48,199 nucleotides of DNA from Bdellovibrionales bacterium (GTDB taxonomy: Bacteria > Bdellovibrionota > Bdellovibrionia > Bdellovibrionales > UBA1609): positions 1 through 48,199 of the forward strand of contig JALHOQ010000003.1 in the NCBI GenBank assembly GCA_022842925.1. Reading direction: 5' to 3'. Below are positions 9,616 through 41,832 of the stretch, piece by piece. Position numbers and translations under genes: made by a program. Positions within the stretch are counted from its first letter, which is position 1; every line of letters starts with the position of its first letter. The notes below the pieces were generated by a model. That model made no database searches. It worked only from the letters and a program-made list of their open reading frames with translations, and was not told the DNA's origin.

Positions 9616-9654
9616 CTGTAGGCCGCATAGGCCTTCGCACTCGAGTAATTTTTC

Positions 9655-10368
9655 TCAGTTTTTAATGGACCGGAAGGATTTTACGAGGTGTGAAGCTTGT
9701 TCAGCAGATAATTTGCGCTGATGAATGAGAAACTGAACGGAAATTTCTTGAGCCTCAAGGGTTAAAGGATCTTTGAGGCTTCTTGAAATGCCGGCAACTG
9801 CCTGTAACCACCGTCCATAAAGAAGTGCAAGCTCTTCCAGAGTAAGGAACTGGCTCTCCTGTTTTGAGGTGGATGACCGTCCGATGCCAGCGTCATGTTC
9901 CCAGTATTCACTTCTAAAACGCCACTTTCGCGAGTCTTTTATCTTCGGATTGAAGACTACATAGTGCGAAACTTCAGAGCGAAAAATCGAGCTTCCACCG
10001 TGACTCAGGTACAGTTCTTCGCGAGTCTGAATCTTTCCTGATTCAAGCAGAGCGCGCTGGTCGTCTCTATGTAGCTCTAGCCGAGCCAATAGGCCTTCTC
10101 GATCATCTTGATGCTGCCGTTCCCACCAATAGACAGACTCTGCGCGCGTGCCCAATGCTGATTTTAGAAACCTCAAATAGGACTCGATGACCGTTATCCC
10201 AATACGGAACTCCATTTTGGCATCCTGGTCGTTGGCCTCCACCTTCTGGGTCGCAACTCCCAAAAGGCGCTCGCAGAGCCCACCAAACCAACTGGACTTT
10301 GAAGCTGCCGAAGCTGAGTAGCTAAACAACATCGTAGAAATTACAAGAACGAGTTTAATAAAGGCCAC
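9655..10368 (-). CDS. exported hypothetical protein (237 aa)
   Basis: GTG start preceded by ACAGGA. Signal peptide ...LVISTMLFSYSASA followed by GGLCERLLG. Confidence 0.6.
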   Translation of the reverse strand: MAFIKLVLVISTMLFSYSASAASKSSWFGGLCERLLGVATQKVEANDQDAKMEFRIGITVIESYLRFLKSALGTRAESVYWWERQHQDDREGLLARLELHRDDQRALLESGKIQTREELYLSHGGSSIFRSEVSHYVVFNPKIKDSRKWRFRSEYWEHDAGIGRSSTSKQESQFLTLEELALLYGRWLQAVAGISRSLKDPLTLEAQEISVQFLIHQRKLSAEQASHLVKSFRSIKN

Positions 10369-10449: not shown

Positions 10450-12312
10450 TCAAAACGACATCGTCGAAATAATTCTTCCGTCACGATCGAACTCAACCAC
10501 AGCGAGAGAATAGCGGCGAATGTAGTCGGCCAGGGACATGCGCTGGCCGTTGACCTCGATATCGCGCCAGCTCATGTAGATATGGGCCTGGCCCATTTCG
10601 CGGGTCGACGATTCAAAGGTGATGGGAAAAAGTTTGTCGTGGCGATCGAAGCGGCGAAAGAACTCCTCCGGGTTGATCGGCCGAGGATCCCGAACAACGC
10701 CGCCGAAGTGGTCGACAAATCCTTTCGGCAAAATTACGGCGTAGTGACGATTGAGCGCCGGGAAACTTCTTTGCGTGCGCAGGCCCTGGAACTCCAGCGC
10801 GCCTTTGTGGCCGACCCCATAGACCCGTTGCGTATTGTCGAGGAAAACTCGCACACTCCCCTCTTTTTGCCGAACTCGAAAATCGGGAAAGCCTTTGGCG
10901 GTTTGGGAAAACGCGACGTCGACTTCGGAGACTGTGTCTGAGGTGAAGGCCGTTTTGCGGGCCAGAACATCGAAGTCCACTTCGACTTCCTCCATAGTCC
11001 GGTAACCCTGGAGCGAAAGGGGCCGAGAATAGGGCAACGGAATTGGACGAAGTGCGATCGCAGCCGGCCGCCACGAAATCAGGTCGACCAGCCAGGCTTC
11101 AAGAAACTCAGGCGGCGTGAAATTATATCGATCGGCTTTGGCTGCGTTTCGAAATTTATAAAAGGCCTCAAGCCTTTCCTTCACTGTTCCAGAAGCTTCG
11201 AGAAGCTTAAATAGCGCAGCGACATTGCGACGAAAGCGGATGCGATCTTCCTCTGGCAGTTCACGGTCCACTCCGCTTAAATACGCCTGAAGCGCTGCGA
11301 CCTCGCGCTGAACCATTTGCACTTCTGAGGCTCTCGATTCCTTTAGGATCTGATCAATTATGGCGGGCGTAGGTCCGGCGTAATGGAAGTCGTTTGCAGG
11401 CGGAGCCGACCATTCCAAAAAACTTTCGGGTGCCGCAATGGAATTCGTCGGCTGCCATGTTTCGATTCCCACGAACTGATCGAGAATCTCGCCCCGCTGG
11501 CGCTCGACTTCGTTGCGATATTGAATATTCCTATAACGGCGTTCGCGTACGGCCGCCCTTTCCCTCTTCCGGCGTTCGCGGGTTTCAGTTCGAACAGGCG
11601 CAAAAACTGAATGGTCGGCGTCTGGCCTCAAGACCACGGCCATATTGGAGAGCCGCGGATTATGGCCGCTTTCGAAATAAGCCGGATAGTTGATGACCAT
11701 TTCGCCCGAGTCGGGCCGGAATGAAAGGGTTTGAATCGAAAAGAAAAATCGCCCGAATCCCTCCTCGCGAATCTCATCTTCGAAGACGTCCAGTTTCCCG
11801 AACTCGCCCAAATTGACCTCAAAAAAGTGCCTAGACTTGATGCGGAACCTTTTCGCTAAAGCGGCCCGCACTTGATCCCGCCGGTCGACAAAGAGGTCCA
11901 CCGCCCGCTGCCGGTCAGCGCGCGGAATTTCGGATCTCTGCAAGTAGCGCTGAATCGTCGTACTCCCATCCCGGATAGGATAGGTCGCCTGTCCCTTTTC
12001 ATCGACGGTGACTAACTCGACCTGAACTCCCGGCACCGGGTGAGCTTCGAGAGTTTGACGAAGGATCTCAAGACCACGGATGTGCGACGCCAGGGCAGGA
12101 CCGGATTTGTTCAGCACTTTAATTTTATAGACGAGATAATCGGCGCATTCGGGCGAATGCGCGCGGGCGTCAGCCGGAAATAGACCTGAAACGGCGAAAA
12201 TCGCCGCGAACAAATTGAATAGAAAGTAATCAGGAGTGAAAAATCCCACCCTTGAGAACGCCGTGCCTGCTTTAAAGCGCATTGAGGTTTCCTTAAGCAT
12301 TCCCCGCGCCAT
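10450..12312 (-). CDS. exported hypothetical protein (620 aa; start may be the Met at 12282)
   Basis: Long ORF. Hydrophobic N-terminal segment FNLFAAIFAVSGLFPADARA followed by HSPECADYLV. Internal Arg-rich stretch RERRKRERAAVRERRYR. No known domain. Confidence 0.65.
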   Translation of the reverse strand: MARGMLKETSMRFKAGTAFSRVGFFTPDYFLFNLFAAIFAVSGLFPADARAHSPECADYLVYKIKVLNKSGPALASHIRGLEILRQTLEAHPVPGVQVELVTVDEKGQATYPIRDGSTTIQRYLQRSEIPRADRQRAVDLFVDRRDQVRAALAKRFRIKSRHFFEVNLGEFGKLDVFEDEIREEGFGRFFFSIQTLSFRPDSGEMVINYPAYFESGHNPRLSNMAVVLRPDADHSVFAPVRTETRERRKRERAAVRERRYRNIQYRNEVERQRGEILDQFVGIETWQPTNSIAAPESFLEWSAPPANDFHYAGPTPAIIDQILKESRASEVQMVQREVAALQAYLSGVDRELPEEDRIRFRRNVAALFKLLEASGTVKERLEAFYKFRNAAKADRYNFTPPEFLEAWLVDLISWRPAAIALRPIPLPYSRPLSLQGYRTMEEVEVDFDVLARKTAFTSDTVSEVDVAFSQTAKGFPDFRVRQKEGSVRVFLDNTQRVYGVGHKGALEFQGLRTQRSFPALNRHYAVILPKGFVDHFGGVVRDPRPINPEEFFRRFDRHDKLFPITFESSTREMGQAHIYMSWRDIEVNGQRMSLADYIRRYSLAVVEFDRDGRIISTMSF

Positions 12313-17642: not shown

Positions 17643-17904
17643 GGCATTCCTTCTATCTTCGCGCCTTCGCATGCGACGAAGATCGGCGCCTCAGAGCCGG
17701 GCTCCGTCACCGCAAAAAGATTGAAAACGCCTACAGCATAAATAAGCGCGAATATATGGACTTGAATCATTCTTGGGCCTAGAGCTGCAATCGAGCCGCC
17801 AACGCGTTGTGAGCCTCCGCCAGCTAGCAGCCCTTGAGCGCCTTTCACTCGAATCCACTTTAAGCGGTTTAGGCCCTGGACCTAAGCCTGCCTCTTTTAA
17901 AAGA

Positions 17905-17970
17905 GTTATATTGGACTATCTAAATATAACTTTTCTTGTGAAAAGTTATATTAGATGTGCTATCTATAAC
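17905..17970. promoter_or_regulatory. two 26-bp palindromic sites, candidate operators of fic
   Basis: GTTATATTGGACTATCTAAATATAAC (17905-17930) and GTTATATTAGATGTGCTATCTATAAC (17945-17970), 40 bp centre to centre. They end 3 nt before the fic ATG. Confidence 0.5.
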
Positions 17971-17973
17971 CTT

Positions 17974-19215
17974 ATGAAAAAGGCCGATCTTCATCCGAAA
18001 CTTCAGCTTGGCGCCGAAAAAGGCTCCGGCGATCTTCAGAACCTTTGGTTTGTTATCCCGCCACCGCCTTCACGAGAAAAAGTGGCAGGCGCAAAGTTAA
18101 ATTCTAAGTTGCTCAGGGAGGCTCACCAAGTTCTTGCTTCCCTACCTAGGTTCGATGATTTAAATGGCGTTGATCAGTTGATCTTGGCCTTGCTAGTTCG
18201 CCGAGAAGCGCTGCATTCCTCGCGCATCGAGGGCACAGCTTCCACTATCGAACAGGTACTGACTCCAAGGGAATTGTTTAGGAAGGGCGAAAAGTCCGCT
18301 CGAGCCTCAATTGTAGGATACGCACAGGCACTAGAAGATGCGCTAGTAGATGCACGCAAGAGAGGTCCGAAAATATTTACTAAAGATCTTCTAAGAAAAC
18401 TTCACAAAGATTTGATGTCTCGAGATCCAGAATTCAGAGGCAAACCGGGGCTCTTTCGAAATGAAATAGGTAAAGGAATTTACGTAACCGTGGGCGGCTT
18501 GAATCGGCCCGAAAATTCGACATTTAATCCCACACCTCCAAAACACATCCCCAGGACATTAGATGAGAATCTCGAATGGATGAGGGACGATTTGCTGATC
18601 GAGATGAGTCACGCGGGTATGGCGCCCGGCCTTATTGTACGAATGGCGCGCGGCCATGCTCACTTTGAGGCTATCCATCCCTTCTCGGATGGGAATGGTC
18701 GAGTTGGTCGAATTCTGATGGCCCTGCAAATGGTCTGCGAAGGTTTTACGCCGTTGTATTTGTCGGGTTACATCGAAGCTCACAAGCCCAAATATTATAA
18801 GGCTCTTCAAGCGTCGCAAATGAAGCTCAATGAAATTCCAATAATACACTTTATTGCACAGGCTGTTGTGAGTTCATTCGACGAAGCTCAGAAAACAAAA
18901 AAAGCGTTAGGAGCACTTCCGGCGACTTGGCAAGAACGGGGAGGTTTTCGTTCAGACTCAGCGGCCAAAGCTTCGCTGAGTCTTTTGCTCGATACTCCGA
19001 TTCTCACGGTAAAGAGGCTTCAAGGCATGGTGAAAGTCAGTCAACCGGCGGCCAAGAGGGCCATCGAACAACTTCAAGCCGCAAAGATTCTCCGCGAACG
19101 AACTGGCCTGGGGAGAAACAGAGTCTTTGCAGCGGAAGAAGTGATTGAGATTTTGGCCCGTCCCTTTGGAGAAGATATTCAAACCGCGTTAGAAAGAGCA
19201 GAATCGCTTTATTGA
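17974..19215 (+). CDS. Fic-family protein (AMPylase-type), class II arrangement with C-terminal wHTH-like tail
   Basis: Fic motif HPFSDGNGRVGR. N-terminal inhibitory-helix-like motif SSRIEG ([ST]xxxE[GN]). C-terminal VKRLQGMVKVSQPAAKRAIEQLQAAKIL. Trimmed to the ATG at 17974 because the upstream 67 codons cover the operator-like AT-rich region. Confidence 0.85.
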   Translation: MKKADLHPKLQLGAEKGSGDLQNLWFVIPPPPSREKVAGAKLNSKLLREAHQVLASLPRFDDLNGVDQLILALLVRREALHSSRIEGTASTIEQVLTPRELFRKGEKSARASIVGYAQALEDALVDARKRGPKIFTKDLLRKLHKDLMSRDPEFRGKPGLFRNEIGKGIYVTVGGLNRPENSTFNPTPPKHIPRTLDENLEWMRDDLLIEMSHAGMAPGLIVRMARGHAHFEAIHPFSDGNGRVGRILMALQMVCEGFTPLYLSGYIEAHKPKYYKALQASQMKLNEIPIIHFIAQAVVSSFDEAQKTKKALGALPATWQERGGFRSDSAAKASLSLLLDTPILTVKRLQGMVKVSQPAAKRAIEQLQAAKILRERTGLGRNRVFAAEEVIEILARPFGEDIQTALERAESLY

Positions 19216-19416: not shown

Positions 19417-20937
19417 TTGATTCTGCGGGCTTATACGCTTCTTAGAAAGCCTTTTTTCGGCGTAACCGGAGTCCAAATTCGGCTCTTTTTGGCCACGCTA
19501 CCTCTTCTGCTTCTCGCAGTGGGGGCCGCGGCAACGTCGGATTGCGAAGAGGCCCTCCACGGCGCGCCACTTGAGCTGTCGCGGCTGGTGAAGGTGGCCT
19601 TACAGAGCGGCATCCTGAGCGCCGACCGGCTGCGGACGGAGCTGGAGTCGGACACTCCCCGTTTCGAGCTCAAAGGCAAGCCGCTCACGTCTACGTCGCT
19701 TCCGGTTGTGCAGGGGTTAAAACGGGCGGCGGCTAAAGTGAACTCCGCGCAATGGGCTATGTCACGTGGGCTGTTCGGTCAACTTCTCACCGATTTGCAC
19801 GATCAATCTCAGAAAAGCGCTGAAGCGCGCATCGAGACCGCGCCGCTTTTGCATCCGAAGCGCGTTCTTAGTTTTGAAACCAACGAGCGTTATGTCAACG
19901 GACTGCGCCTGACTGTAACTCCGGACGAGCGCATTTGGGTCTCTTACATGGGAGAATCCATTCATCTGCATCCGGCGGACGAGCCCGCGGCCGATCAACC
20001 TCAGAAGCTGGGTTCTTCGGATGTGTTTGCCCCGCTGGACAGCCTGCTCACGGTGGAGCCCGATGGTCGCCCGCTCCTCCATGTGATGGCCACCCGCGAT
20101 CACAAGCCCGCATGGTGGCGCTTCACCGAAGTGTTGCTGTCGCGCTGGACCATGGCCTTTGGCGAGAAGCCGAAGCAGCTGGCTGAGATTATAAGTCCCA
20201 TGCGCAAAAACAGTTGGGGTAATCCCAAAATGTTCAAGCGCGGAGAACGGTTCTTTTTCAGTTATTTTTCTTTTACCAAACAGAACGGCCGCGAGCACAT
20301 GGTGTTTGAACTTCCAGCGCCGGGGCAACCCGTAAAAAACTATAGCTTACTCAACCAATCCGAGACTGGCTTCGTCCCCACGGCCGATGGCATTTACCGT
20401 CATGCCATGAGACCTCTGGCATTCGAGTTCAATGGAAAGCTTTTTTCCGGTTACGCGCATAAAAAAGAAGTCGTTCTTGAAAGTGAAGGCCGGACTCAGA
20501 TATTCGAGATGCCCTACGAGGTGCACCACGAATTTACAGTAAACTTGGATAATGGCGAACCTGTCATCGCGGTTAATCTGCATTCGAACTCGGAATGGTT
20601 TATCGGACTTATAAAACCATTCGCCAGCTCGGATCAGGTCCGCGTCTACAGTTCTATAATTGGCTGGCCACAATTTAAACAGTGGGTTCGGCTACCCAAT
20701 GGCGGGCGCTTGCTCAGTCTTTCGGTGCGGAACTCCGGAAAAACCCAGACCGTCTTCTTCGATGAGCGGATCGGGTTCAGCCAGCCCATTGAGATGAAAG
20801 GGAATGGTAAGTTGATTTTCGCGACCGGCCAGAAGAACGTTTACTTCCTAATGCACGATGAGGAGTCCACCCTCGCAAGAGTCTCCAACCCCACGGTCGA
20901 TATCTACAGTCTGTTCAATGAGGTCGAACGCCGGTGA
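19417..20937 (+). CDS. exported hypothetical protein (506 aa), distant paralogue of 16158-17642
   Basis: TTG start after AGGAGA. Hydrophobic LFLATLPLLLLAVGAAA followed by TSDCEEALH. Similar size and N-terminal architecture to 16158-17642. Confidence 0.65.
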   Translation: MILRAYTLLRKPFFGVTGVQIRLFLATLPLLLLAVGAAATSDCEEALHGAPLELSRLVKVALQSGILSADRLRTELESDTPRFELKGKPLTSTSLPVVQGLKRAAAKVNSAQWAMSRGLFGQLLTDLHDQSQKSAEARIETAPLLHPKRVLSFETNERYVNGLRLTVTPDERIWVSYMGESIHLHPADEPAADQPQKLGSSDVFAPLDSLLTVEPDGRPLLHVMATRDHKPAWWRFTEVLLSRWTMAFGEKPKQLAEIISPMRKNSWGNPKMFKRGERFFFSYFSFTKQNGREHMVFELPAPGQPVKNYSLLNQSETGFVPTADGIYRHAMRPLAFEFNGKLFSGYAHKKEVVLESEGRTQIFEMPYEVHHEFTVNLDNGEPVIAVNLHSNSEWFIGLIKPFASSDQVRVYSSIIGWPQFKQWVRLPNGGRLLSLSVRNSGKTQTVFFDERIGFSQPIEMKGNGKLIFATGQKNVYFLMHDEESTLARVSNPTVDIYSLFNEVERR

Positions 20938-23514: not shown

Positions 23515-23658
23515 TTCCATAAATCGGTTAGGCCGAAAAAAGGGCACCCCCACCTAAAACTTCTACAGGGGGAGACACAAAAGTGAGCCGCCTAATCGCT
23601 CAGGCTCGAGCCCGCGTCCTTTTCATTGGAATGCCGTTTGCCTTTGAGGAGAGCACTC

Positions 23659-25395
23659 ATGCGATTGATCCTTTTGCTCCTCTTTCTGCCGTTAGCCGCC
23701 ATGGCCAAATGGTCCAATAACGATTGCGAAGATCGCCTGCTTCCGGTGGCGGACGGCACGCGTGAACGCTTCGTCTTTGGATCCGCGACGTACCTCAATT
23801 TATCTCTGCTCAAAGAGTATGAATCGATTTCTCCTGAAGTTCGCCAGCGTTTCGATCAAGAGGTCCGAGCGGTTGAGCACCTCAGCCGTCGCCAAGCCCA
23901 TGAAATCGCGCTGGCCTACCATCAAAGTCCGGATGAACCCAACCGGCTCAAACTCTTTAACGCCATGAGGATTCTAGTTCCCATCGCCAGTCGCCATCTT
24001 CTGGCCAGATTAAATGGGCCCGACGATCTCGAAGACTATTTTCAGGTCGGCTACGCCGGACTTTGGCAAGCGTTACCGAACGTCCCTAAAATCGCCCCGC
24101 GCAAAATGAAGAGCCTTCTCTACTGGGAGGGCGTGGCCAATGGGCTGCGCAAGCAGATTTTTTATAATATGCGCCGGCAGTTTCGGACTCAGTACTCGCT
24201 GACGCCCGTCTCTTTTGCGAAGGGATCGGAGTTTTCGTTTGAGGAGGAAATTCTACTCTTTGGCTTTTCACCAGAGGAAAGGGCCAAAATCGCAGCCGAT
24301 TATGGCCGCAAGGCGGAGGAAGCCGAAGCCGAATGGCAGCTGCAAATGGCCTCGGTCCTCCACCACTTGCAAACCGACGAAGCCACGGAACCCGCTTCAG
24401 CTGAGGAGCAGATTGAAGAGGAGTATGTGCGATCGGAGCTCAAGCAGCTTGTTGATCGGAGTTTGTTAAAGCTACCTCCCCGAGTGGAGCGAATTCTCCG
24501 TATGTCAGTGATGGCTGAAATGACTTTAGAACAGGTCGGCAATAAGATTGGTGTGACGAAAGAGCGCATCCGGCAACAAGAGATGCAGGGCCTACGCGTC
24601 CTCATGCACCCCGCTTATTCGCGTAAGCTCAAAGAATACCAAGACGGTTTTTATGATATTGATGACCCAAAAGTTAAGTGGGATCGAATAGTTGTTCAGT
24701 CGCAACGCAAGCAAGCCGCCGCCGCGGCTAAGGCTTGGGAAGCCGAGAGAGCCAAAATTGAACGCCAGAAGGCAGAGCTGGCCCAAACTGACCTTCGGGA
24801 ACGGGAGTTAAAGGCCCGTGAAAAACTGACGCAAACTCTAAATGCGCACAAGCGAGAATTTGCGACAACAATGGCAAACCTTTATCGCCTGCTGGATCGC
24901 TACGGAACGGAGTACTCCGATCTTCAAGAATCTGCCAAAGGACTTGAGCGCAAGGTGACGGAGGCGAAAGCGGACTTCTTTGGTGCCGTGGACACGCTTC
25001 TGGCTAAGCCGATCGCATCCGCAACCAAGGAAGCCGAGCTCATCCAAGATCGCAATCGGCGGCAACCCCTGCTCCAAACCTTGTCGCAGCACCTCTCGCA
25101 ATTCATTCCGAAGATCCGAGATTTACAATCACGTATTGAAGAAACCGAAGAAGAAAAGGCGAAAAAAATTGAAATCACGGCGCGCGAAGTCTCGCATATT
25201 GCGCAGGCCTTAGAAGCCATGGTCCAACTTCAGGACAAAGGGAATTCAAGTCCCATTGTGGAATCCCAGCGGGCCGAACTGGCCCGGCAACTCAAGTTGA
25301 AGCGCGAGGAGCTGGATCGAATTCAGCTTCCATTCGACCATGAGATTCAGGCCACACTCAGCACATTGAGAATAATTATAAAACAAGGCCCGTAA
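23659..25395 (+). CDS. sigma-70-like protein with N-terminal signal/anchor sequence and ~230-aa C-terminal coiled-coil tail
   Basis: ATG at 23659 after GAGGAGAG. N-terminus MRLILLLLFLPLAAMA. Region-2-like LFNAMRILVPIASRHLLARLNGPDDLEDYFQVGYAGLWQAL...LLYWEGVANGLRKQIFYNMRRQ. Region-4 HTH LPPRVERILRMSVMAEMTLEQVGNKIGVTKERIRQQEMQGLRVL. The tail is rich in K/E/Q/A heptad-like sequence. Confidence 0.65.
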   Translation: MRLILLLLFLPLAAMAKWSNNDCEDRLLPVADGTRERFVFGSATYLNLSLLKEYESISPEVRQRFDQEVRAVEHLSRRQAHEIALAYHQSPDEPNRLKLFNAMRILVPIASRHLLARLNGPDDLEDYFQVGYAGLWQALPNVPKIAPRKMKSLLYWEGVANGLRKQIFYNMRRQFRTQYSLTPVSFAKGSEFSFEEEILLFGFSPEERAKIAADYGRKAEEAEAEWQLQMASVLHHLQTDEATEPASAEEQIEEEYVRSELKQLVDRSLLKLPPRVERILRMSVMAEMTLEQVGNKIGVTKERIRQQEMQGLRVLMHPAYSRKLKEYQDGFYDIDDPKVKWDRIVVQSQRKQAAAAAKAWEAERAKIERQKAELAQTDLRERELKAREKLTQTLNAHKREFATTMANLYRLLDRYGTEYSDLQESAKGLERKVTEAKADFFGAVDTLLAKPIASATKEAELIQDRNRRQPLLQTLSQHLSQFIPKIRDLQSRIEETEEEKAKKIEITAREVSHIAQALEAMVQLQDKGNSSPIVESQRAELARQLKLKREELDRIQLPFDHEIQATLSTLRIIIKQGP

Positions 25396-33657: not shown

Positions 33658-33700
33658 CGCGATCTTGAGCACAGCCTTTGCAAACTCACGACTTCATTAT

Positions 33701-35365
33701 ATGAACTCAAAAGTACGCACGAGCCTCGGCCTTAAGGCCGTAATTATTTCTCTTTCAGTCTCATTTTGTTCACCAGTCTATGCTTCTTGTGAAGACGCCC
33801 TCGGCGCACCCCGCACGACTTTGCACTTTCCGCGGGAGCTGAAGATTGACGAAAAATGGATGCCGTTGGCCATTACGACGCATAGACAAGGGCCTATCGT
33901 AGCAAAGCTGGGCAGTCTCTTTGCCAAGGCCGAAACCGTGAGTGGGTTTTGGTCGGAAGTCGCACTCGCCGTGGTGGAGCCCGTCGAAGCGCACTACCCG
34001 TTTCCTTTAACCGAGCGTCTGTTGATGAACCTGGGACTGGCGGTCACGCCATCTGAGCAAGAGCGGGTCGAGGCCCTGGTCCCCAAGCTGATCTTGCATT
34101 TCGCGGAAGTCTTGGATGAGGAGGAAATCGTGCTTCTCGCCCACCTCCTACGTGGGCGGCCGGTGAATACCAAGACCTCGGCGGAGCGCGTTCCCCTTAA
34201 ACTGAGCGACTTTGAAGAATCCGTCGCAACCAATCCTTTAATTACGATTCCCTTTGATCGCTGGCTCTCAATTCAAAAATTTATCGTCTCCCATCCGGTT
34301 TATCGCGAATACATGGCAAGCCTGCTTGCAAGCGACGGCTTTGTTGCGGCCATCATGCGGGCCGCCGAATACCCGTTGGACGAGATTGACGACGAGACCA
34401 TTCGCACCACGCGGGAGAGCCTTGGCGCAGCGGACCGACTGACTCGTAAAAAGACAAAAGGCATAAAGGTTTCAGCAGAAATAAACACCTACACCGTCGT
34501 TACCATGTCATTTGTCGGTCTGGTTCAGGAGGCCATGAGGAAACCGGAACTGCGGCCCAAGCTTGAGGCCGATCCCCGAGCCATACTGGAAGAGCTCGAG
34601 GAAATATTTATTCCCGTGTTTAAAGTGAGATCCGACATCGAAACGTACATTCGAGCCGTTGATTTCTTTATGTGGGATACACCAGTACCGGAATCGGCCG
34701 AGTCAATGCGGCAGGTGGCCCTCGATGCCGCTCGCAGTCTGATTCTCGATTTCAAAGGCGAGTTGTCACGTTTTAAAGCGAATGCAACTCTTGAAGAGAA
34801 ACGGGCGCAAGCCGCCTCACGAGTGACCTCCATCGGCGAAATCAAAACGTTGAACCCGTTTGTGGTGGCGCCCTTGGCAAAACAGCGGGTCAAGACTCGC
34901 GGCACCGCCCGACCTGCGGAGGCGGCCGGGCCCCTCGAAGCGGTAAAGCAAAACGATCTCTTCGAACTGACTCACTTCAGTCGGGACGCAGGCCCCTTTG
35001 TTATTGAAGACAAAGTCTACCAGTTTCAGTTCATTCGAAACGCGGCGGCCGGGCCGCAAAGCGTTCGCCTTCAGCCGGAAGCTCTGGCCGAACTGCGTGC
35101 TCTGCCTGAGCGGGAGGCTCGGCGTCTGCTGGGAGCCTTCGTGATGGGCTATACCGATCGCTCGGCGCGCGCCACGAGCGGCGTAAAACGCCTTTACCGA
35201 AACGGACAAAACCAAACCGCGCTTTATGAGGCCCGCCCTGGCCACTCCAATCAGCGGTTGATTTTGGCCCGGCCTGAAAGCGGAGAGTGGCGCATACTCG
35301 GCGTGGTCGAAAAGGCCCATTTCGACAAAGCTGTCGAGCGGCGCTTTCAGCGGCAGCAGCTTTAA
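33701..35365 (+). CDS. exported protein (554 aa) with C-terminal RelE/ParE-like toxin fold
   Basis: ATG at 33701. Signal peptide ...AVIISLSVSFCSPVYA followed by SCEDALG. The last ~95 aa (LAELRALPEREARRLLGAFVMGY...VKRLYRNGQNQTALYEARPGHSNQRLILARPESGEWRILGVVEKAHFD) follow the RelE/ParE pattern. Confidence 0.6.
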   Translation: MNSKVRTSLGLKAVIISLSVSFCSPVYASCEDALGAPRTTLHFPRELKIDEKWMPLAITTHRQGPIVAKLGSLFAKAETVSGFWSEVALAVVEPVEAHYPFPLTERLLMNLGLAVTPSEQERVEALVPKLILHFAEVLDEEEIVLLAHLLRGRPVNTKTSAERVPLKLSDFEESVATNPLITIPFDRWLSIQKFIVSHPVYREYMASLLASDGFVAAIMRAAEYPLDEIDDETIRTTRESLGAADRLTRKKTKGIKVSAEINTYTVVTMSFVGLVQEAMRKPELRPKLEADPRAILEELEEIFIPVFKVRSDIETYIRAVDFFMWDTPVPESAESMRQVALDAARSLILDFKGELSRFKANATLEEKRAQAASRVTSIGEIKTLNPFVVAPLAKQRVKTRGTARPAEAAGPLEAVKQNDLFELTHFSRDAGPFVIEDKVYQFQFIRNAAAGPQSVRLQPEALAELRALPEREARRLLGAFVMGYTDRSARATSGVKRLYRNGQNQTALYEARPGHSNQRLILARPESGEWRILGVVEKAHFDKAVERRFQRQQL

Positions 35366-36615: not shown

Positions 36616-38220
36616 CTAAAGAGACACTCCATTAAAAGCTTCAATCATTTCCTTTAAGCTCTCGATTTCCTCGCGAGTTAAAGGATCGTCGGGCGGCATC
36701 TGGCCGCGCCCCGAACGTTGCACGCGATCCATGATTTTCTGTCCCCACTTTGCCGCCGGATCACGCAGAAGGCGAGCCAGCTCAAGCGAATTATCAAACG
36801 GAATCATTTTGGCATCGAAGTCAAAACCCTCGGTATGGCACTTGGCGCAGCGATTGATTACGGGGCGCTCCCTTTTGACGGCCGACATCGAAGTGAATTG
36901 TGTCGCCGCCGGGACGGATCGAGGCGCTTTTAAACTTCCCACTTTCAACTGCTCACAGTCGAATGCCAGCCAGCCGTTCTTTTCGGTGCCGAGAGTTTGC
37001 TCCGTATATTTTATTCCCCTGTACCATTCTGGTCGGAGTTCATTTAACACGGCGGTGGCGTCGAGAAGTACATTGCTTGGATTCCCTATAAAATAATCGT
37101 TGGCGATATGGCTGGTACTCAGATTTTGCAGGTTCACCCCAGCGGCGTCGAATACCGCGCGGATCATCGCCATGTCGACGGCTTCCCCTTTAAGCCGCTG
37201 ATGATCTATATTGAAGAGCACTTCTGGATTGGGAAATAGGACTTTGTGAAGCGCGACTTGCGTCGCCTTCATATGATCTCTCGCGGGAACAAGTGAGGCG
37301 TAAATTCGGTCGACTCGGGCTTGGAACTCCGCGCGCTCGTCTACGCGAAACATCTCGAGAAGCGAAGAAAGAGCTTGCGAATAGTCGGTGTCGAAACGGC
37401 TATGGCAAGAACTAAGCACCGACATCAGCGGAAAGCGCCAGCCGTTTAAATTCTGCGACTGCAGCGCATGATTCAGTTGGCTGGCCAGATTGATTTGGCC
37501 CACATATTGAGTGAACGGCGTGTTTTCTTCCTCAGGGCCGAGCTCGAGCTTCGGGAGTAAATTCAGGCGCTTTAATATCTCAGAGGAGCCGGCCGCGGCG
37601 CGAAGCCGATCATAAGCCGCCGTCTCTTGCTTGCTGTGCATCGCGCCGACTGCGCTGCCGAAGGCGTTCGGCCAAAAGTCATATGGATCCCAGAGCATTT
37701 TGGCCGGGCGACCATGACACGCGATACACGCTCTGGGATTGCGTTCGATCTTTACTCCGCCATTTTTGGCGAAGGTGATTTCGCTCAGCTGAATTGAATA
37801 GTCGACGGGCGAGGCCTCGAGCATTTCGACCTTTAGGGAGCGGTTCTCGGGGTGCTCCGAAAAGGTAAAGGCTTTTCCGCCGTCAAAGAGGATCACTCGC
37901 GGATGCTCGGTCGATGCGAACTGCAGGCTGGCCGAGTGGTGCAGAATTACGAAATGATCCTTTAGCGAAGGCGCTTGTTTGAACAGGTAATCCAAAAACT
38001 GCGGGTAAGTGTTGAATTGGGGCCGGTCGCGCTCGATTTCCGCTATCCCCGGAACCGGAACTTTAAATACGCCGCGGTCGGTGACCACGCCGCCCGTGAA
38101 AGTGTAGCTGTAGCGCACGAAACTCTCTTGCAAATCATAGGACTGCGCCCAGACTCCGGATGTAAAGAAAATCGCTACAGCAAGAATATTCTTCCCCACG
38201 GTCTCCCCCCCCGCGTCCAT
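36616..38220 (-). CDS. exported c-type cytochrome-like protein with two CxxCH motifs
   Basis: 534 aa. Signal-like NILAVAIFFTSGVWAQ. Haem-binding motifs CIACH and CAKCH. C-terminal GQMPPDDPLTREEIESL is typical of a cytochrome c domain end (Met ligand). Confidence 0.7.
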   Translation of the reverse strand: MDAGGETVGKNILAVAIFFTSGVWAQSYDLQESFVRYSYTFTGGVVTDRGVFKVPVPGIAEIERDRPQFNTYPQFLDYLFKQAPSLKDHFVILHHSASLQFASTEHPRVILFDGGKAFTFSEHPENRSLKVEMLEASPVDYSIQLSEITFAKNGGVKIERNPRACIACHGRPAKMLWDPYDFWPNAFGSAVGAMHSKQETAAYDRLRAAAGSSEILKRLNLLPKLELGPEEENTPFTQYVGQINLASQLNHALQSQNLNGWRFPLMSVLSSCHSRFDTDYSQALSSLLEMFRVDERAEFQARVDRIYASLVPARDHMKATQVALHKVLFPNPEVLFNIDHQRLKGEAVDMAMIRAVFDAAGVNLQNLSTSHIANDYFIGNPSNVLLDATAVLNELRPEWYRGIKYTEQTLGTEKNGWLAFDCEQLKVGSLKAPRSVPAATQFTSMSAVKRERPVINRCAKCHTEGFDFDAKMIPFDNSLELARLLRDPAAKWGQKIMDRVQRSGRGQMPPDDPLTREEIESLKEMIEAFNGVSL

Positions 38221-38388: not shown

Positions 38389-41151
38389 TCACGGCTGCAT
38401 ATTTAGAAAGCCATCGAGAATCACCATTTGCGGTGACTTCGGTTTTAGATAGCGCGCTTCCTTCTCAAACTCCTCCGACTCGAAAAAACCTTCATCGAAG
38501 GCCATGTTGAGTCGGCGAATCAGATCCTTAGAAACGGCCTCTTGTGGTTTCAGACCGGGATCTCGAGCCGAAAGCAATCGGTATCGGTGGAACCAACGGT
38601 CATAGTCCTTATAGGTCTTCAGATGATCGCCCTCGGAGCCGACGATCTTCAAAGCGCCCTTCTTAAGATGATCTACAAGTAACTTTTGGGCATCCTTAGA
38701 CAGGAAGTACAAAAGCTGCGTCAGATTGAGCAACCCCACTTCCGCCAGTGCGCTGCGAACAATTTTATCCGGATCCTCTCCAGCAGTGCGAAGCCGATCG
38801 TCCAAAGCGACCGCCAAACCCCTATAGTCCCGTCCATCATAAGACTTGTTCTGATTTGCCAGCTCGGTGGCCCATGCCCTCGCCGGCTCCTCCAACAATT
38901 CAAGAAAGTGCTGTTGGTGACCGTAGACATCGTGAATGGCAGATAGCCTCAATCCGCTTTGCAAGCGTGACACCATCTCTCTGTAATAAAACGAGGACTT
39001 TATAAAGTAGCTCGGCCACTTCCATAAGTGATGAAAATGGACGAGTTCCCTACTCAGAAACTCTACATTAATAAAGAGCTGATTGAGACGGAGAGCATTT
39101 ACCCTGTAATCACTCGCTCCTGTCGACTGCAATACAGACTTTAACACCGTTCGCAGAAGCTCCTCCTTAGCCTGCCGGGAAAGTTTTTCGTAGAAATCCT
39201 CTCCATTGCGTCCCCACCAGTTCTGCACGAGTCGACGTAGGGAACCCTCCGGTCCCTTCACAGCGCGCGGAAAACGCTTCGAAGTGGCAACAAATTCTTC
39301 ATACTGGCGGATGACGTTCTCCTCTGAGAATCCGTCCGATGAAGTGCGAAACTTGAGTAGCTCGGCCACAATGTCGTCGAGACCCGAGCCCCTCAGGCCT
39401 TCGCCATACAAATCGAGATCCGACTTCTGACGAGCTTGTTGCGTAACAAGGGAGGACCCTTGGAGGGCTTGAAATACCTGCAGCGCCTCTCGAACGGTCG
39501 ACTCATCGATTTTCATGGCCGTGAGCACGGAGACAACCGTCTTATCGTTTGTCAGGCGCAAAATCCGGCCGAGGCGCTGTAAAAACTGCCGAGGCCCCAC
39601 GTAACGGTTGAGGTCAATGTAAAGACTCAACCCCGGAACATCGATCCCCTCATCGAGTTGCTTCACTGTCACCAGATGATTGATTTTGCCGCTGCGCAAG
39701 TCTTGGCGAATCGAGATCTGTTCTTTAGGCGGCAAGCCTGAATGGAGTACGGCGAAGCGGAAATTTGCATCTTCGTTGCGGCTTGAAAGCGTTCGAAACA
39801 GAGCTTCCGCCTCCGCTTGAGTGGAAACCGAAGTAAAGCCAAACTTATGTTGTTTGGCATGTCGCATGACTTTTGCCGCCACAACGTCCATCTTTTCAGG
39901 CGCCAAAATATAGCGATCAAAATCCAGTCCCAAGGATCGAGTGCTTACAAACAGATCGTCAAACCCTCGGTTCAGAGTCAGTAATTGAATAAAGCCAATC
40001 GGGGATAGATCCCCTTGGGCCAAGGCTTGGTTAAGTTGATCCACAATGATCTGAAAAGAATAATCGACTGTCCGGCCTGGCTTACTAAAACTAGCCGCCG
40101 TGTCGACATAGGCCCAGAAGACGTTATCTTCAAAAAGATTCACAATAGATGTCTGCCGGTGAATCGGTGTGGCCGAGGTACCGTAAACGAAGCGGTCCTC
40201 GCCGCGGCTGTGAATTAGCCCGCTGACGATCTGCTTGGCATAATGAGCGCCCGCATGATGAACCTCGTCATAGCCGAAATATCCCACTCGTAGAAAAAAA
40301 TCATTTTGCTGATCGGGAGATAAAGAGAAAAAGGCATCACGAAGGCTCTGAATAGTAGTGACGACCAATATCGGCAAACCTTTGGGGCCATTTTTTTTGG
40401 CATCGTCCAACGCCTTTTGCAGTTCTGCTGGCTTCCCGTCGCCCCATATTCGCAAATCTACTGAAAGCCCCTTAATGCTTTGAATCTCCTGGACCAGTTG
40501 GGTCACGAGAAAATTGGAGTCGGCGACCACAAAATGGACTTTTTGTTTTGTAATCTGCAAAAATCGATCAAGTGAGACTTTCAAGATCTCGGTTTTGCCG
40601 GTACCCGTTGGCGACACGAACAAGAACGACCTCCGTCGCTCCTCCAACGACCATACTATCGATTTGACTGCCTCCTTTTGCGCCGGCCTGAGGACTTTCT
40701 TGCCAGTTACTTTGGCCTGCGGATGGGCGGCGTGACCGACCAACAATCGCTTGATCAATCCCTTTCTTTGCTCGGGCTTGAGTTCCCTCCACTTAAACCC
40801 TGTCGGGATTGAGAGTAGGCGCTCTCCTTCATATTGAATCTCAGGCTCCGTTAAATCGGGTCGACTCGACCACGCAACCCGAATTGAGGGTTGATCGGGA
40901 ATTAAAATCTCGATCTGCCCAGGAGCCAGTTCACGCCACTTGAATTCGGACTTAATCACGGGTTTTACAACATTCAGAAGAAAGTAACGTAACTGTGAGG
41001 CCGAGACTGGCGACGCCGGGCTAACCACCAACGCGTCGACACAGGATTGTGAGTTGTGGGCAAAACAGTTTGCACCAGACAGCAACATGAGGGCTGAACA
41101 AAACCGTCTAAAGTATCTCCAAAAGGAGACCATTCCGAGAATATTTTGCAC
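38389..41151 (-). CDS. SF2 DEVH-box helicase (ResIII + Helicase_C type) with N-terminal Sec-type signal peptide
   Basis: 920 aa. Motif I VSPTGTGKTE, II YDEVHH, III GTSATP, V QLDEGIDVPG, VI QRLGRILR. GTG start after AGGAAG. N-terminus FWRYFRRFCSALMLLSGANCFA followed by HNSQSCVDALV. Confidence 0.8.
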   Translation of the reverse strand: MQNILGMVSFWRYFRRFCSALMLLSGANCFAHNSQSCVDALVVSPASPVSASQLRYFLLNVVKPVIKSEFKWRELAPGQIEILIPDQPSIRVAWSSRPDLTEPEIQYEGERLLSIPTGFKWRELKPEQRKGLIKRLLVGHAAHPQAKVTGKKVLRPAQKEAVKSIVWSLEERRRSFLFVSPTGTGKTEILKVSLDRFLQITKQKVHFVVADSNFLVTQLVQEIQSIKGLSVDLRIWGDGKPAELQKALDDAKKNGPKGLPILVVTTIQSLRDAFFSLSPDQQNDFFLRVGYFGYDEVHHAGAHYAKQIVSGLIHSRGEDRFVYGTSATPIHRQTSIVNLFEDNVFWAYVDTAASFSKPGRTVDYSFQIIVDQLNQALAQGDLSPIGFIQLLTLNRGFDDLFVSTRSLGLDFDRYILAPEKMDVVAAKVMRHAKQHKFGFTSVSTQAEAEALFRTLSSRNEDANFRFAVLHSGLPPKEQISIRQDLRSGKINHLVTVKQLDEGIDVPGLSLYIDLNRYVGPRQFLQRLGRILRLTNDKTVVSVLTAMKIDESTVREALQVFQALQGSSLVTQQARQKSDLDLYGEGLRGSGLDDIVAELLKFRTSSDGFSEENVIRQYEEFVATSKRFPRAVKGPEGSLRRLVQNWWGRNGEDFYEKLSRQAKEELLRTVLKSVLQSTGASDYRVNALRLNQLFINVEFLSRELVHFHHLWKWPSYFIKSSFYYREMVSRLQSGLRLSAIHDVYGHQQHFLELLEEPARAWATELANQNKSYDGRDYRGLAVALDDRLRTAGEDPDKIVRSALAEVGLLNLTQLLYFLSKDAQKLLVDHLKKGALKIVGSEGDHLKTYKDYDRWFHRYRLLSARDPGLKPQEAVSKDLIRRLNMAFDEGFFESEEFEKEARYLKPKSPQMVILDGFLNMQP

Positions 41152-41232
41152 GCCCTGACTTCCTAGCTCGACTTCAATGGTTAGGGTTGTCGAAGTAGCA
41201 AAACGGCGGCCATGGAGATCAGGCGGCGGAGT

Positions 41233-41832
41233 TCAGCGCGGCTTTTGAAACTCCACCGCCACGCGCTCGAAGGCTCCCGGCGAACCCTTTGTATCGAGGA
41301 TAAAAACATGCGTGTAGCCATGAAGAACGGCCTGGCGTCCGGTCCAAGTCTTGCGGGCCGCTTCTTCGAGCGGAAGTCTTTGCGAGAGCCCATTGAACTG
41401 CGCGAGATTGTCGGAATCGCCTTCCCAATTGCCGAGCACCGCTTGAACCCGCGAGCCGAAGTAATCCAAGAAGAGTTTAAAAATGAGGTGACCGTCGAAG
41501 CCCGCCACCCGGCCGCCCCTGGGACCTTTCACATAAAGCCCCATCATCATCAAGTCGCGATCGAGCATTCGGGCCCAGGCATGGGGATAGCGCGTCTTAT
41601 GCTCGATGGTGATCCGGTCGTGGGTGGCGTCGATGGTAAAGCCAGCTCGGTTCAAGCCGATCATCGTGCGCGTGAGGCTGTTGCCCATCAGCCATTCGCA
41701 ATCCGCGGGCGGCTTATCGCCGCCCGCCTGAGCCTGGCTGAGCGGGCCTAGGCTCAAGCCGAGAGCGAGCAAAATGTACGCAAGAATGTAATTTGGCGCT
41801 ATTCGGCGCGGCGGGGGTGTGGTCAGGAGCAT
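41233..41832 (-). CDS. exported hypothetical protein (199 aa)
   Basis: Signal peptide ...ILAYILLALGLSLGPLSQAQA followed by PPADCEWLMG. Preferred over the antisense ORF 41212-41751, which has no features. Confidence 0.6.
   Translation of the reverse strand: MLLTTPPPRRIAPNYILAYILLALGLSLGPLSQAQAGGDKPPADCEWLMGNSLTRTMIGLNRAGFTIDATHDRITIEHKTRYPHAWARMLDRDLMMMGLYVKGPRGGRVAGFDGHLIFKLFLDYFGSRVQAVLGNWEGDSDNLAQFNGLSQRLPLEEAARKTWTGRQAVLHGYTHVFILDTKGSPGAFERVAVEFQKPR

What the first reader, a model, noticed from the sequence alone, without database searches (positions are those of the whole stretch)
38389..41151. A Sec-signal-bearing SF2 DEVH helicase
All helicase core motifs are intact (SPTGTGKT, DEVH, SAT, QxxGRxxR), so this looks like a functional NTP-dependent enzyme. 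The N-terminus (basic RYFRRF, hydrophobic CSALMLLSGANCFA, then HNSQSCVDALV) reads as a cleavable signal peptide carrying the shared Cys module. The periplasm has no ATP and no nucleic-acid substrate, so export suggests action in a target cell or a non-canonical role. There are also ~170 aa N-terminal and ~330 aa C-terminal regions with no recognisable domains.
Basis: partly seen in the sequence, partly recalled or inferred. Interest (0 to 1): 0.7.

Follow-up and report, generated by a model that had tools for sequence, protein, structure and literature searches.

The report
Helicase family with a conserved export leader
This gene encodes an apparently functional ATP-driven DNA/RNA motor (SF2 helicase) that carries a secretion leader. 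About 150 relatives, whose identifiable sources are all predatory-type bacteria (Bdellovibrionota), keep the same leader and one invariant cysteine, so the enzyme is probably exported to act on a victim cell's nucleic acids.

Summary
A 920-aa ORF lies on the minus strand at 38389-41151. Its SF2 motifs are intact: SPTGTGKT 180-187, DEVH 295-298, SAT 326-328 and QRLGRILR 525-532. The N-terminus reads as a Sec-type leader.

- The best start is the GTG at 41151. It has AGGAAG 7 nt upstream, whereas the internal ATGs have no ribosome-binding site.
- Homologues do not lack the leader. An exhaustive search found 157 sequence clusters at E<1e-30. Essentially every member with a complete N-terminus has a positive n-region, a hydrophobic core and an AxA-type cleavage site.
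- A Cys follows the cleavage site in 78 of 78 aligned rows.

The mature proteins (about 900-1300 aa) are otherwise almost Cys-free, and the ATPase residues are 96-100% conserved. The nearest leaderless relatives are SauUSI/PbeA-type restriction helicases.

Strong genome hits (six loci) all come from Bdellovibrionota assemblies. At least eight other ORFs on this contig share the same module of leader plus a single Cys.

My best reading is a Sec-exported DNA motor that acts in the prey or bdelloplast. Export itself is untested, and this copy's leader is the weakest in the family. I found no literature precedent.

The parts
41159..41164 (-). Shine-Dalgarno-like AGGAAG, 7 nt upstream of the GTG start
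   Evidence: Read from the sequence. The SD scan gives a match only for this start, not for the ATGs at M7 or M22.
41059..41151 (-). Predicted Sec-type leader, aa 1-31. The n-region carries R12, R15 and R16; the h-region is F17-L24(-A31); the c-region is C29-F-A31, with predicted cleavage before H32.
   Evidence: A leader is present across the family. It is neither Tat nor a lipobox.
41026..41052 (-). Short helix, aa 34-42, carrying the invariant Cys37 (codon 41041-41043). This is the 'shared Cys module', C-x-[D/E]-x-[L/F].
   Evidence: Cys is present in 78/78 aligned family rows, with the other 5 rows gapped. It would be the only Cys in the mature protein. The AF2 model shows a helix at 34-42.
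40702..41004 (-). Family-specific N-terminal alpha/beta domain, aa 50-150. It ends in the conserved G139-H-x-x-H143-P144 linker.
   Evidence: AF2 pLDDT is above 90, with helix 51-62, strands 71-116 and helix 126-136. Conserved columns are P103, L113, P116 and G139 H140 H143 P144. Pfam gives no hit.
40147..40698 (-). RecA-like domain 1, aa 152-335. It holds the Q-motif Q158, motif I G185-K186-T187, motif II D295-E-V-H298 and motif III S326-A-T328.
   Evidence: Pfam ResIII/DEAD. Family conservation is 96-100%. AF2 pLDDT is above 90.
39517..40146 (-). Inter-domain insertion (aa 336-430, with conserved F340, W346, Y348, Q372 and G380) plus RecA-like domain 2 (aa 431-545). Domain 2 holds motif V E501-G502 and motif VI Q525-R526-x-G528-R529-x-x-R532.
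   Evidence: Pfam Helicase_C. The PDB profile hit to SauUSI 7clg spans this region. Conservation is shown.
38389..39516 (-). C-terminal all-helical region, aa 546-920, plus the stop codon. It contains one clear and several degenerate ~55-60-aa helical repeats, which are present in higher copy number in homologue P0003.
   Evidence: Alignment A1. The AF2 model is all-helical with low pLDDT. Pfam gives no hit at E<=10.

Best explanation
The gene encodes a member of a previously undescribed, Bdellovibrionota-restricted family of exported SF2 (ResIII-type, SauUSI/PbeA/XPB-like) nucleic-acid motors.

**Shown by computation**
- The ATPase/translocase core is intact and strongly conserved.
- A Sec-type leader (positive n-region, hydrophobic core, small residues at -3 and -1) is conserved across the family.
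- One Cys just after the cleavage site is invariant.
- The rest of the protein is almost Cys-free.

**Inferred mechanism**
1. Translation starts at GTG 41151.
2. The unfolded protein crosses the producer's inner membrane through Sec and is cut after A31.
3. The short N-terminal helix with Cys37 is the same module found on at least eight other otherwise Cys-free exported proteins of this contig. It serves a common post-Sec step, such as disulfide coupling to a partner or carrier, dimerisation, or onward targeting.
4. The mature enzyme works where ATP and nucleic acid are available: the prey cytoplasm, or the permeabilised prey cell (bdelloplast).
5. There it translocates on or unwinds prey DNA. 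This would strip or open the nucleoid for the predator's secreted nucleases, or block prey replication and transcription.
6. The C-terminal helical repeats probably bind nucleic acid or partner proteins.
For: **Core.** Pfam ResIII and Helicase_C match. In 83 aligned members Q158, G185, K186, D295 and P329 are 100% conserved, and E296, H298, T328, R526 and R529 are 96-98% conserved. AF2 pLDDT exceeds 90 for aa 50-570, and Foldseek gives probability 1.0 to SF2 helicases.

**Leader across the family**
- All 9 close or genome-derived homologues have one.
- The family comprises 157 clusters at E<1e-30, and 102 of 150 representatives pass a strict test.
- In 110 leaders the N-flank averages +2.0 K/R and 0.24 D/E, while the C-flank is net acidic.
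- 105 of 110 have a -3/-1 small-residue site, and the median uncharged run is 19 aa.

**Cysteine pattern**
- The Cys after the leader is present in 78/78 rows.
- Median mature Cys content is 0.24%, against 0.3-1.95% in leaderless outgroup helicases.
- A sole Cys sitting in the first ~15 mature residues recurs in at least 8 unrelated ORFs of the contig.

**Taxonomy and context.** All strong genome hits (L003-L008) come from Bdellovibrionota, Bacteriovoracia or Oligoflexia MAGs.

**Precedent for the route**
- A Sec signal alone drives extracellular secretion of a reporter in B. bacteriovorus (PMC12622784).
Against: - Export was not tested, and no trained signal-peptide predictor could be run.
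- This copy's h-region is the weakest on the contig. Its 10-residue hydrophobicity (1.84) overlaps that of leaderless controls.
- The contig's taxon is inferred only from distant homologues at about 30% identity. No named close relatives were found.
- No member is known from a cultured predator.
- There is no evidence that a ~100-kDa protein can reach prey cytoplasm.
- No nuclease or other functional partner is conserved next to the gene.
- The DNA-versus-RNA substrate is inferred only from the nearest relatives.
Confidence: 0.5

Rival explanations
1. The hydrophobic N-terminus is an uncleaved membrane anchor. The helicase stays on the cytoplasmic face of the producer's own inner membrane, for example as a ComFA-like motor that pulls in DNA fragments taken from prey.
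For: The ATP requirement would be satisfied trivially. The AF2 model shows aa 3-25 as one helix. From general knowledge, membrane-associated SF2 ATPases for DNA uptake exist (ComFA).
Against: - Charge distribution follows N-in/C-out: the N-flank is +2.0 K/R and the C-flank is net acidic in 110 leaders.
- The N-flank is more positive than the C-flank in 88 of 110 leaders.
- 105 of 110 have an AxA-type cleavage site.
- Uncharged runs have a median of 19 aa including the c-region, which is shorter than a typical transmembrane span plus flanks.
- Extreme Cys depletion with one invariant Cys is typical of exported proteins, not cytoplasmic ones.
Confidence: 0.1
2. The protein is exported but acts without ATP turnover in the periplasm, on the cell surface or outside the cell, for example as a nucleic-acid-binding or eDNA-binding scaffold.
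For: From general knowledge, the producer's own periplasm lacks ATP. The large helical-repeat C-terminus could be a binding platform.
Against: The Walker A Lys, the DE of motif II, motif III and both motif VI arginines are 96-100% conserved across 83 divergent members at 20-35% identity. That level of conservation is not expected if hydrolysis were dispensable.
Confidence: 0.12
3. The family is exported, but this particular copy is not, or only inefficiently. Its leader has decayed, and the protein is cytoplasmic or dually localised.
For: - Its 10-residue hydrophobicity of 1.84 is the lowest among leaders on the contig and lies within the range of leaderless controls.
- It fails the strict family test.
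- It also lacks the C-x(3-7)-C hairpin pair present in many members.
Against: - It keeps three Arg in the n-region, an 8-residue core scoring 2.45, a C-F-A site and the invariant Cys37.
- Its body has no other Cys.
- P0003 also lacks the hairpin pair yet has a strong leader.
Confidence: 0.15
4. The leader is an annotation artefact. Translation really starts downstream (M22 or later) and the protein is an ordinary cytoplasmic helicase.
For: A database gene call uses M22 and gives 899 aa.
Against: - M22 and M7 have no SD, whereas GTG 41151 does.
- A start at M22 would still leave the conserved Cys37 and N-domain, but would truncate a leader that is present in essentially all full-length homologues.
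Confidence: 0.03

Closest known systems
SauUSI-type type IV restriction helicase-nucleases (PDB 7CLG) and PbeA/Dnd-associated restriction helicases
   Same: They are the closest sequence relatives of the motor. The PDB profile search gives 7clg_A E 1.3e-19, PADLOC gives PbeA 84.5 bits and mREase_IV, and NCBIfam gives dnd_restrict_1 E 6e-18. They share the DE(A/V)HH and TATP motifs and the 'LF..N...QL..A...G.L.PF' segment between the RecA domains.
   Different: Those enzymes are cytoplasmic and have no leader. They carry an N-terminal PLD nuclease and a C-terminal DUF3427 recognition domain. This family has neither. Instead it has a leader, the Cys helix, a novel N-domain and helical repeats. 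Scores fall far below the family cut-offs (65 vs 600 bits).
XPB/Rad25, UvrB and RadD DNA-repair SF2 helicases
   Same: RecA2 similarity at E 1e-10 to 1e-16, and Foldseek probability 1.0.
   Different: The similarity covers the core only. The accessory domains of those families are absent, and NCBIfam scores are 30-37 bits against cut-offs of 610-750.
Secreted nucleases of Bdellovibrio bacteriovorus (Bd0934, Bd3507, Bd1244, Bd1934)
   Same: They are a functional analogy. They act on nucleic acid, carry N-terminal signal peptides and are secreted by a predator into the bdelloplast (PMC7925074, PMC2797640).
   Different: They are ATP-independent hydrolases and are unrelated in sequence. No ATP-dependent motor has been reported among secreted predator proteins: a phrase search for secreted, periplasmic or exported helicase returned nothing relevant.
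Disulfide-linked A-B toxins (general knowledge; an analogy only)
   Same: An exported, otherwise Cys-poor catalytic protein carries a single functionally essential Cys that could couple it to a delivery partner and release it in a reducing cytosol.
   Different: No partner has been identified, and there is no sequence or structural relationship. This is pure inference.

Membership tests
SF2 helicase/translocase superfamily (ResIII/DEAD + Helicase_C) | Motif I (Walker A GxGKT) and motif II (DExH) | tested here: met
   S180-PTGTGKT187 and D295-EVH298. G185, K186 and D295 are 100% conserved in 83 members.
SF2 helicase/translocase superfamily (ResIII/DEAD + Helicase_C) | Motif III (S/TAT), motif V and motif VI (QxxGRxxR arginine fingers) | tested here: met
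   SAT 326-328, E501-G502 and Q525-RLGRILR532. R526 and R529 are 96-97% conserved.
SF2 helicase/translocase superfamily (ResIII/DEAD + Helicase_C) | Two tandem RecA-like domains | tested here: met
   Pfam scores exceed the gathering cut-offs: ResIII 64.4 vs 22.5 and Helicase_C 50.3 vs 23.5. AF2 pLDDT is above 90, and Foldseek gives probability 1.0 to many SF2 structures.
SF2 helicase/translocase superfamily (ResIII/DEAD + Helicase_C) | Nucleic-acid-stimulated ATPase or unwinding activity | not testable with these tools
   Requires biochemistry on the mature protein.
SauUSI-like type IV restriction enzyme / PbeA | N-terminal PLD-family nuclease domain | tested here: not met
   No PLDc_2 hit in the window protein or in 12 family members. 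The domain is present in outgroups P0005-P0008.
SauUSI-like type IV restriction enzyme / PbeA | C-terminal DUF3427/SRA-like target-recognition domain, and a family-level score | tested here: not met
   No PF11907 hit. NCBIfam dnd_restrict_1 scores 65 bits against a cut-off of 600.
XPB/Rad25 | Equivalog-level score with the damage-recognition and thumb domains | tested here: not met
   NF045503 scores 30.5 bits against a cut-off of 610, and only RecA2 aligns.
Sec (signal peptidase I) signal peptide | Positively charged n-region | tested here: met
   R12, R15 and R16 with no acidic residue. The family mean is +2.0 K/R against 0.24 D/E.
Sec (signal peptidase I) signal peptide | Hydrophobic h-region of about 7-15 residues | tested here: inconclusive
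   This copy has an 8-residue core scoring 2.45 and a 10-residue mean of 1.84, which overlaps the leaderless controls. The feature is clearly met in homologues at 2.3-3.5. No trained predictor was available.
Sec (signal peptidase I) signal peptide | Small uncharged residues at -3 and -1 after the h-region | tested here: met
   C29-F-A31 precedes H32. 105 of 110 family leaders have such a site.
Sec (signal peptidase I) signal peptide | Actual export and cleavage | not testable with these tools
   Needs reporter fusions or N-terminomics.
Bacterial lipoprotein signal (lipobox) | [LVI][ASTVI][GAS]C with the Cys directly after the h-region | tested here: not met
   The residues before Cys37 are S-Q-S. 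In the family, charged residues are frequent at -1 to -3 and an AxA site lies upstream. The contig has a canonical lipobox elsewhere: L-T-A-C in ORF 31244+.
Tat signal peptide | [ST]-R-R-x-F-L-K motif and a long n-region | tested here: not met
   Only 10 of 110 leaders contain RR, none fits [ST]RRx plus two hydrophobic residues, and the median n-region is 6 aa.
Known anti-phage defence systems (PADLOC) | Full-length match to a defence helicase plus system partner genes nearby | tested here: not met
   Only partial core matches to PbeA, and the neighbouring ORFs have no hits.
Helicase-associated (HA, PF03457) repeats | Pfam match in the C-terminal repeats | tested here: not met
   No hit at E<=10 for the window C-terminus or for the five clear repeats of P0003. 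The resemblance is from memory only.

The most novel reading that the evidence does not exclude
The module 'Sec leader, short linker, then a single invariant Cys at the start of a helix' would be a previously unrecognised delivery tag of Bdellovibrionota. It would mark otherwise Cys-free cargo proteins for transfer beyond the producer's periplasm into prey cells. Cargoes here include an SF2 helicase, an M3 peptidase and a sigma-70 region-4 DNA-binding protein, all of cytoplasmic type. The Cys would form a reducible disulfide to a carrier or translocator. On this reading the helicase would be the first ATP-dependent nucleic-acid motor used as an inter-bacterial effector.
Probability: 0.25. Interest if true: 0.85.

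Novelty: new variant of a known kind. Interest (0 to 1): 0.72.

Why it matters
**Unusual location.** Helicases are archetypal cytoplasmic enzymes. A large, conserved family that carries a secretion leader while keeping its ATPase site under strong selection implies a motor protein deployed outside the producer cell. I could find no description of such a protein.

**Relevance to predation.** If these proteins act in prey, they add an active, ATP-consuming step to how predatory bacteria dismantle or silence prey genomes. Candidate roles are opening the nucleoid, stripping proteins, or blocking replication and transcription.

**A route to a delivery pathway.** The invariant lone Cys is shared with many unrelated exported proteins. 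It offers a concrete, testable way to find an unknown sorting or delivery pathway in a phylum being developed as 'living antibiotics'.

**Annotation.** Automatic gene callers can clip these leaders. The database call here starts at M22, which hides the feature.

Tried and rejected
- **Tat export.** Considered because of R15-R16 and the weak h-region. Rejected: only 10 of 110 leaders have RR and none fits the Tat consensus.
- **Lipoprotein.** Rejected: there is no lipobox, charged residues precede the Cys, and an AxA site lies upstream.
- **Defence-system membership.** PADLOC gave only partial PbeA and mREase_IV core matches, and the neighbours had no hits.
- **HA-domain identity of the C-terminal repeats.** No Pfam hit even at E<=10.
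- **Conserved operon partner.** The contexts of P0002-P0004 and L003-L008 differ. BLAST of window neighbours and module proteins against all ORFs of L001-L008 gave only a weak Fic-Fic match. The module-bearing proteins of the window are not paralogues of each other.
- **Taxon identification.** Searching the M3 peptidase and looking up cluster members returned only unnamed metagenomic proteins. The window has no tRNA or Rfam RNA.
- **First AF2 model.** With a 4-sequence alignment it was too poor to use (pLDDT 50.6).
- **Foldseek.** The good model hit generic SF2 helicases and could not discriminate a subfamily or address the N-domain separately.
- **Promoter and terminator scan.** Nothing exceeded the shuffled expectation.
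- **Bd1370.** This helicase is up-regulated in predation (PMC2797640, PMC3526173). I could not retrieve its sequence, so its relation to this family is unknown.
- **Omnitrophota giant-gene preprint.** It concerns SecA-DEAD domains, which are a different thing.
Full report
**1. The observation**

The window has a 920-codon ORF on the minus strand at 38389-41151. Pfam places ResIII at aa 152-330 (E 1.5e-17), DEAD at 155-332 and Helicase_C at 442-533 (E 3.2e-13), all above their gathering cut-offs.

- SPTGTGKT at 180-187
- DEVH at 295-298
- SAT at 326-328
- QRLGRILR at 525-532

The N-terminus reads MQNILGMVSFW-RYFRRF-CSALMLLSGANCFA-HNSQSCVDALV, as described. No Pfam family covers aa 1-150 or aa 560-920, even at E<=10.

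**2. Start codon**

GTG 41151 is the first possible start after an in-frame stop. It is preceded by AGGAAG (41159-41164) with a 7-nt spacer. A scan for anti-SD complementarity finds a site for this start only. The ATGs at M7 (41133) and M22 (41088) have none.

The public protein database holds this protein as an 899-aa product starting at M22 (P0001). That start cuts through the hydrophobic segment. Comparative evidence (section 3) shows it is almost certainly a mis-call.

**3. Homologues keep the leader**

*Close and genome-derived homologues.* The word-indexed search found only three relatives at 33-38% identity. All three begin with a textbook leader followed within a few residues by a Cys.

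A scan of one genome per species found strong matches (E 2e-60 to 3e-29) only in six assemblies labelled Bacteriovoracia, Bdellovibrionales, Bdellovibrionaceae, Bdellovibrionota (two) and Oligoflexia. The next hits drop to E 1e-13 and are generic helicases. Extending those six ORFs to their first starts again gives leaders such as MRELRPILFLLLLLVSVAYA|GIDPKKCQ.

*Exhaustive search.* The search of 1.84 billion cluster representatives shows the family is large: 157 representatives at E<1e-30.
- 102 of 150 examined sequences pass a strict heuristic (10-residue Kyte-Doolittle mean >=2.0 and uncharged run >=11).
- Of the 48 that fail, about 25 begin inside the conserved profile, so they are N-terminal fragments or mis-called starts.
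- About a dozen are borderline, including the window protein itself.

*Properties of 110 leader-bearing members.*
- The N-flank averages 2.0 K/R and 0.24 D/E.
- The 15 residues after the uncharged run are net acidic.
- 105 have small residues at -3 and -1.
- The median uncharged run is 19 aa.

This is the Sec/SPase-I pattern with N-in orientation. It is not a reverse anchor.

*Alternatives excluded.*
- Tat is excluded: only 10 of 110 leaders have RR, none fits the consensus, and the median n-region is 6 aa.
- A lipobox is excluded: the residues before the Cys are often charged, and an AxA site lies upstream. The same contig has a canonical L-T-A-C lipoprotein.

*Control.* The nearest leaderless helicases (P0005-P0015) start with hydrophilic PLD-nuclease domains and show no such segment.

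**4. A caveat for this copy**

Its hydrophobic core is short. FCSALMLL scores 2.45 over 8 residues, and the best 10-residue mean is 1.84. That is the lowest of all putative leaders on the contig (1.97-3.23) and lies within the range of leaderless ORFs (0.6-1.86).

It keeps three arginines, the C-F-A site and the Cys. Its export competence is plausible but not secure, and no trained predictor was available.

**5. The Cys and the Cys-free body**

In an 83-sequence alignment, the Cys after the leader (C37 here) is present in 78 of 78 rows that have a residue in that column. It opens a short helix with a C-x-[D/E/Q]-x-[L/F] pattern.

The mature proteins of 900-1300 aa typically contain either this Cys alone or this Cys plus a C-x(3-7)-C pair near aa 85-95. 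Median Cys content is 0.24%, against 0.3-1.95% in the leaderless outgroups. The window protein would have exactly one Cys after cleavage.

An invariant, apparently unpaired Cys on an otherwise Cys-free large protein is what one expects of a protein that passes through an oxidising compartment and uses that thiol for something specific.

**6. The same module on other proteins of the contig**

At least eight other ORFs share the arrangement of leader, AxA site, short linker and a sole Cys in a C-[E/Q/A]-[D/E]-x-L context on an otherwise Cys-free body of 200-700 aa:
- 5522+, 695 aa, an M3 peptidase
- 7776+
- 9655-
- 10450-
- 19417+
- 23626+, 589 aa, with a Sigma70_r4 domain
- 33665+
- 41233-, directly upstream of the helicase

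These proteins are not detectable paralogues of each other.

If a protein's single Cys fell at random among several hundred positions, it would lie in the first ~15 mature residues about 3% of the time. Eight or more cases on one contig cannot be chance.

Similar proteins sit next to family members in other genomes: L001 5085+, L003 4412+, and L008 304+ and 2401+.

**7. The motor**

Catalytic residues are essentially invariant across members that share only 20-35% identity:
- 100%: Q158, G185, K186, D295, P329, Q372
- 96-98%: E296, H298, T328, E447, E501, R526, R529, K537

With the deep alignment, AF2 gives pLDDT above 90 for aa 50-570. Foldseek matches many SF2 helicases with probability 1.0 but does not single out a subfamily.

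By sequence, the closest characterised relatives are:
- SauUSI (7clg_A, E 1.3e-19), XPB, UvrB and RadD;
- PbeA and type IV methyl-directed restriction enzymes in PADLOC;
- the Dnd-associated restriction enzyme model in NCBIfam.

All score far below the family cut-offs and align over the core only. The PLD nuclease and DUF3427 domains of those enzymes are absent.

The motor is therefore most like restriction or repair-type dsDNA translocases. Its substrate is inferred, not shown.

**8. The extensions**

*N-terminal domain.* Residues 50-150 form a confidently predicted alpha/beta domain (helix, five strands, helix). It ends in a conserved G-H-x-L-H-P linker (83-96% conserved), and Pfam has no match for it.

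*C-terminal region.* Residues 546-920 are all-helical with low confidence. In P0003 the equivalent region is five clear ~58-aa repeats, and the window protein has one clear repeat (about 607-670) plus degenerate ones. They resemble 'helicase-associated' repeats from memory, but Pfam gave no hit. I do not assign them.

**9. Context**

- The gene lies between the 199-aa module protein (41233-41832) and a 534-aa exported protein with two CxxCH motifs (36616-38220), all on the minus strand.
- No convincing promoter or terminator separates them.
- Neighbourhoods of homologues are not conserved.
- Family members can occur in tandem (L083).
- Most ORFs on the contig have leaders. That fits an organism with a very large secretome.

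**10. How it most likely works**

*Shown:* an intact, selected ATPase core, a conserved Sec-type leader, an invariant Cys, a Cys-free body, and Bdellovibrionota-restricted strong hits.

*Inferred:*
- Sec export and cleavage after A31.
- A common post-Sec role for the Cys helix, such as disulfide coupling, dimerisation or onward targeting.
- ATP-driven action on nucleic acid in the prey cytoplasm or the permeabilised bdelloplast, where the argument that the periplasm lacks ATP does not hold.

[quoted passage not shown] A Sec signal alone drives extracellular secretion of a reporter in B. bacteriovorus (PMC12622784).

A helicase gene, Bd1370, is up-regulated 30 min into predation (PMC2797640) and is listed among genes shared with Bacteriovorax marinus (BMS_2214) in the predatory core-genome study (PMC3526173). 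I could not test whether it belongs to this family.

The rival explanations are an uncleaved anchor, an ATP-independent role, a decayed leader in this copy, and a start artefact. They are listed with their evidence in the Rival explanations section.

**11. Novelty**

Phrase searches of about 8.3 million full texts for secreted, periplasmic, exported or extracellular helicase found nothing relevant. Searches combining Bdellovibrio, helicase and signal peptide found no description of such a family.

The components, an SF2 motor and a Sec leader, are both known kinds. The combination, its conservation and the lone-Cys module appear undescribed. I rate it a new variant of a known kind.

The more radical reading is a new delivery tag for prey-directed cytoplasmic-type effectors. 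It is not excluded, and I put its probability at about 0.25.

Noticed in passing
window 5522-7609(+), 7776-9029(+), 9655-10368(-), 10450-12312(-), 19417-20937(+), 23626-25395(+), 33665-35365(+), 41233-41832(-): At least eight further ORFs share the same N-terminal module: leader, AxA site, short linker, and a single Cys in a C-[E/Q/A]-[D/E]-x-L context. Their bodies of 200-700 aa are otherwise Cys-free. They are not detectable paralogues of each other.
   Followed up: partly
window 23626-25395 (+): A 589-aa protein has a strong leader and the Cys module, and contains a Sigma-70 region 4 DNA-binding domain at aa 280-326 (E 5e-9). It is a second cytoplasmic-type, nucleic-acid-directed domain on an apparently exported protein.
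   Followed up: no
window 5522-7609 (+): A 695-aa M3 peptidase (oligopeptidase A/Dcp type, E 1.7e-63) carries a leader and a single Cys at position 38. Its only close relative is an 88%-identical metagenomic protein, and the next hits fall to about 25% identity.
   Followed up: partly
window 36616-38220 (-): Immediately downstream of the helicase lies a 534-aa leader-bearing protein with two CxxCH haem-binding motifs (C165-IAC-H and C458-AKC-H). It has a weak, sub-threshold Cytochrome_CBB3 match.
   Followed up: no
window 17773-19215 (+); L001 6103-7074: The window has a Fic/DOC protein (Fic_N + Fic) without an obvious leader. A Fic gene also sits directly upstream of the helicase homologue P0002 in L001. 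The two Fic proteins are only weakly similar.
   Followed up: partly
window 41088 (M22 of the helicase): The public protein collection holds this gene product as an 899-aa protein starting at M22, which truncates the leader. Several family representatives also look clipped in the same way. For example, P0044 has a shorter start than the longer ORF in L008.
   Followed up: yes
L001 7153-10118: Homologue P0002 appears frameshifted. Its last ~40 residues are Cys/Arg-rich and unlike the family. The next ORF (9537-10118, 193 aa, no Cys) continues with the family's C-terminal helical-repeat sequence.
   Followed up: partly
L083 10001-23159: On a 2.59-Mb contig two family members (2532 aa and 1250 aa) lie in tandem. 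They are close to a Cas12a (Cpf1) gene, an ApaLI-type R-M pair, and infB/nusA. The NusA carries a long lysine-rich (HC2/extensin-like) tail.
   Followed up: no
window 1-48199: The whole 48-kb contig has no tRNA and no Rfam match. Most ORFs of at least 150 aa begin with leader-like segments. It reads as an island of secreted proteins from a deeply divergent uncultured lineage.
   Followed up: partly
family alignment A2, about aa 85-95 of most members: Many members have an extra conserved C-x(3-7)-C pair (for example 'SCGxNCL' or 'RSCKIDGSCMVL') in the N-domain. It is probably a hairpin disulfide. The window protein and P0003 lack it.
   Followed up: partly
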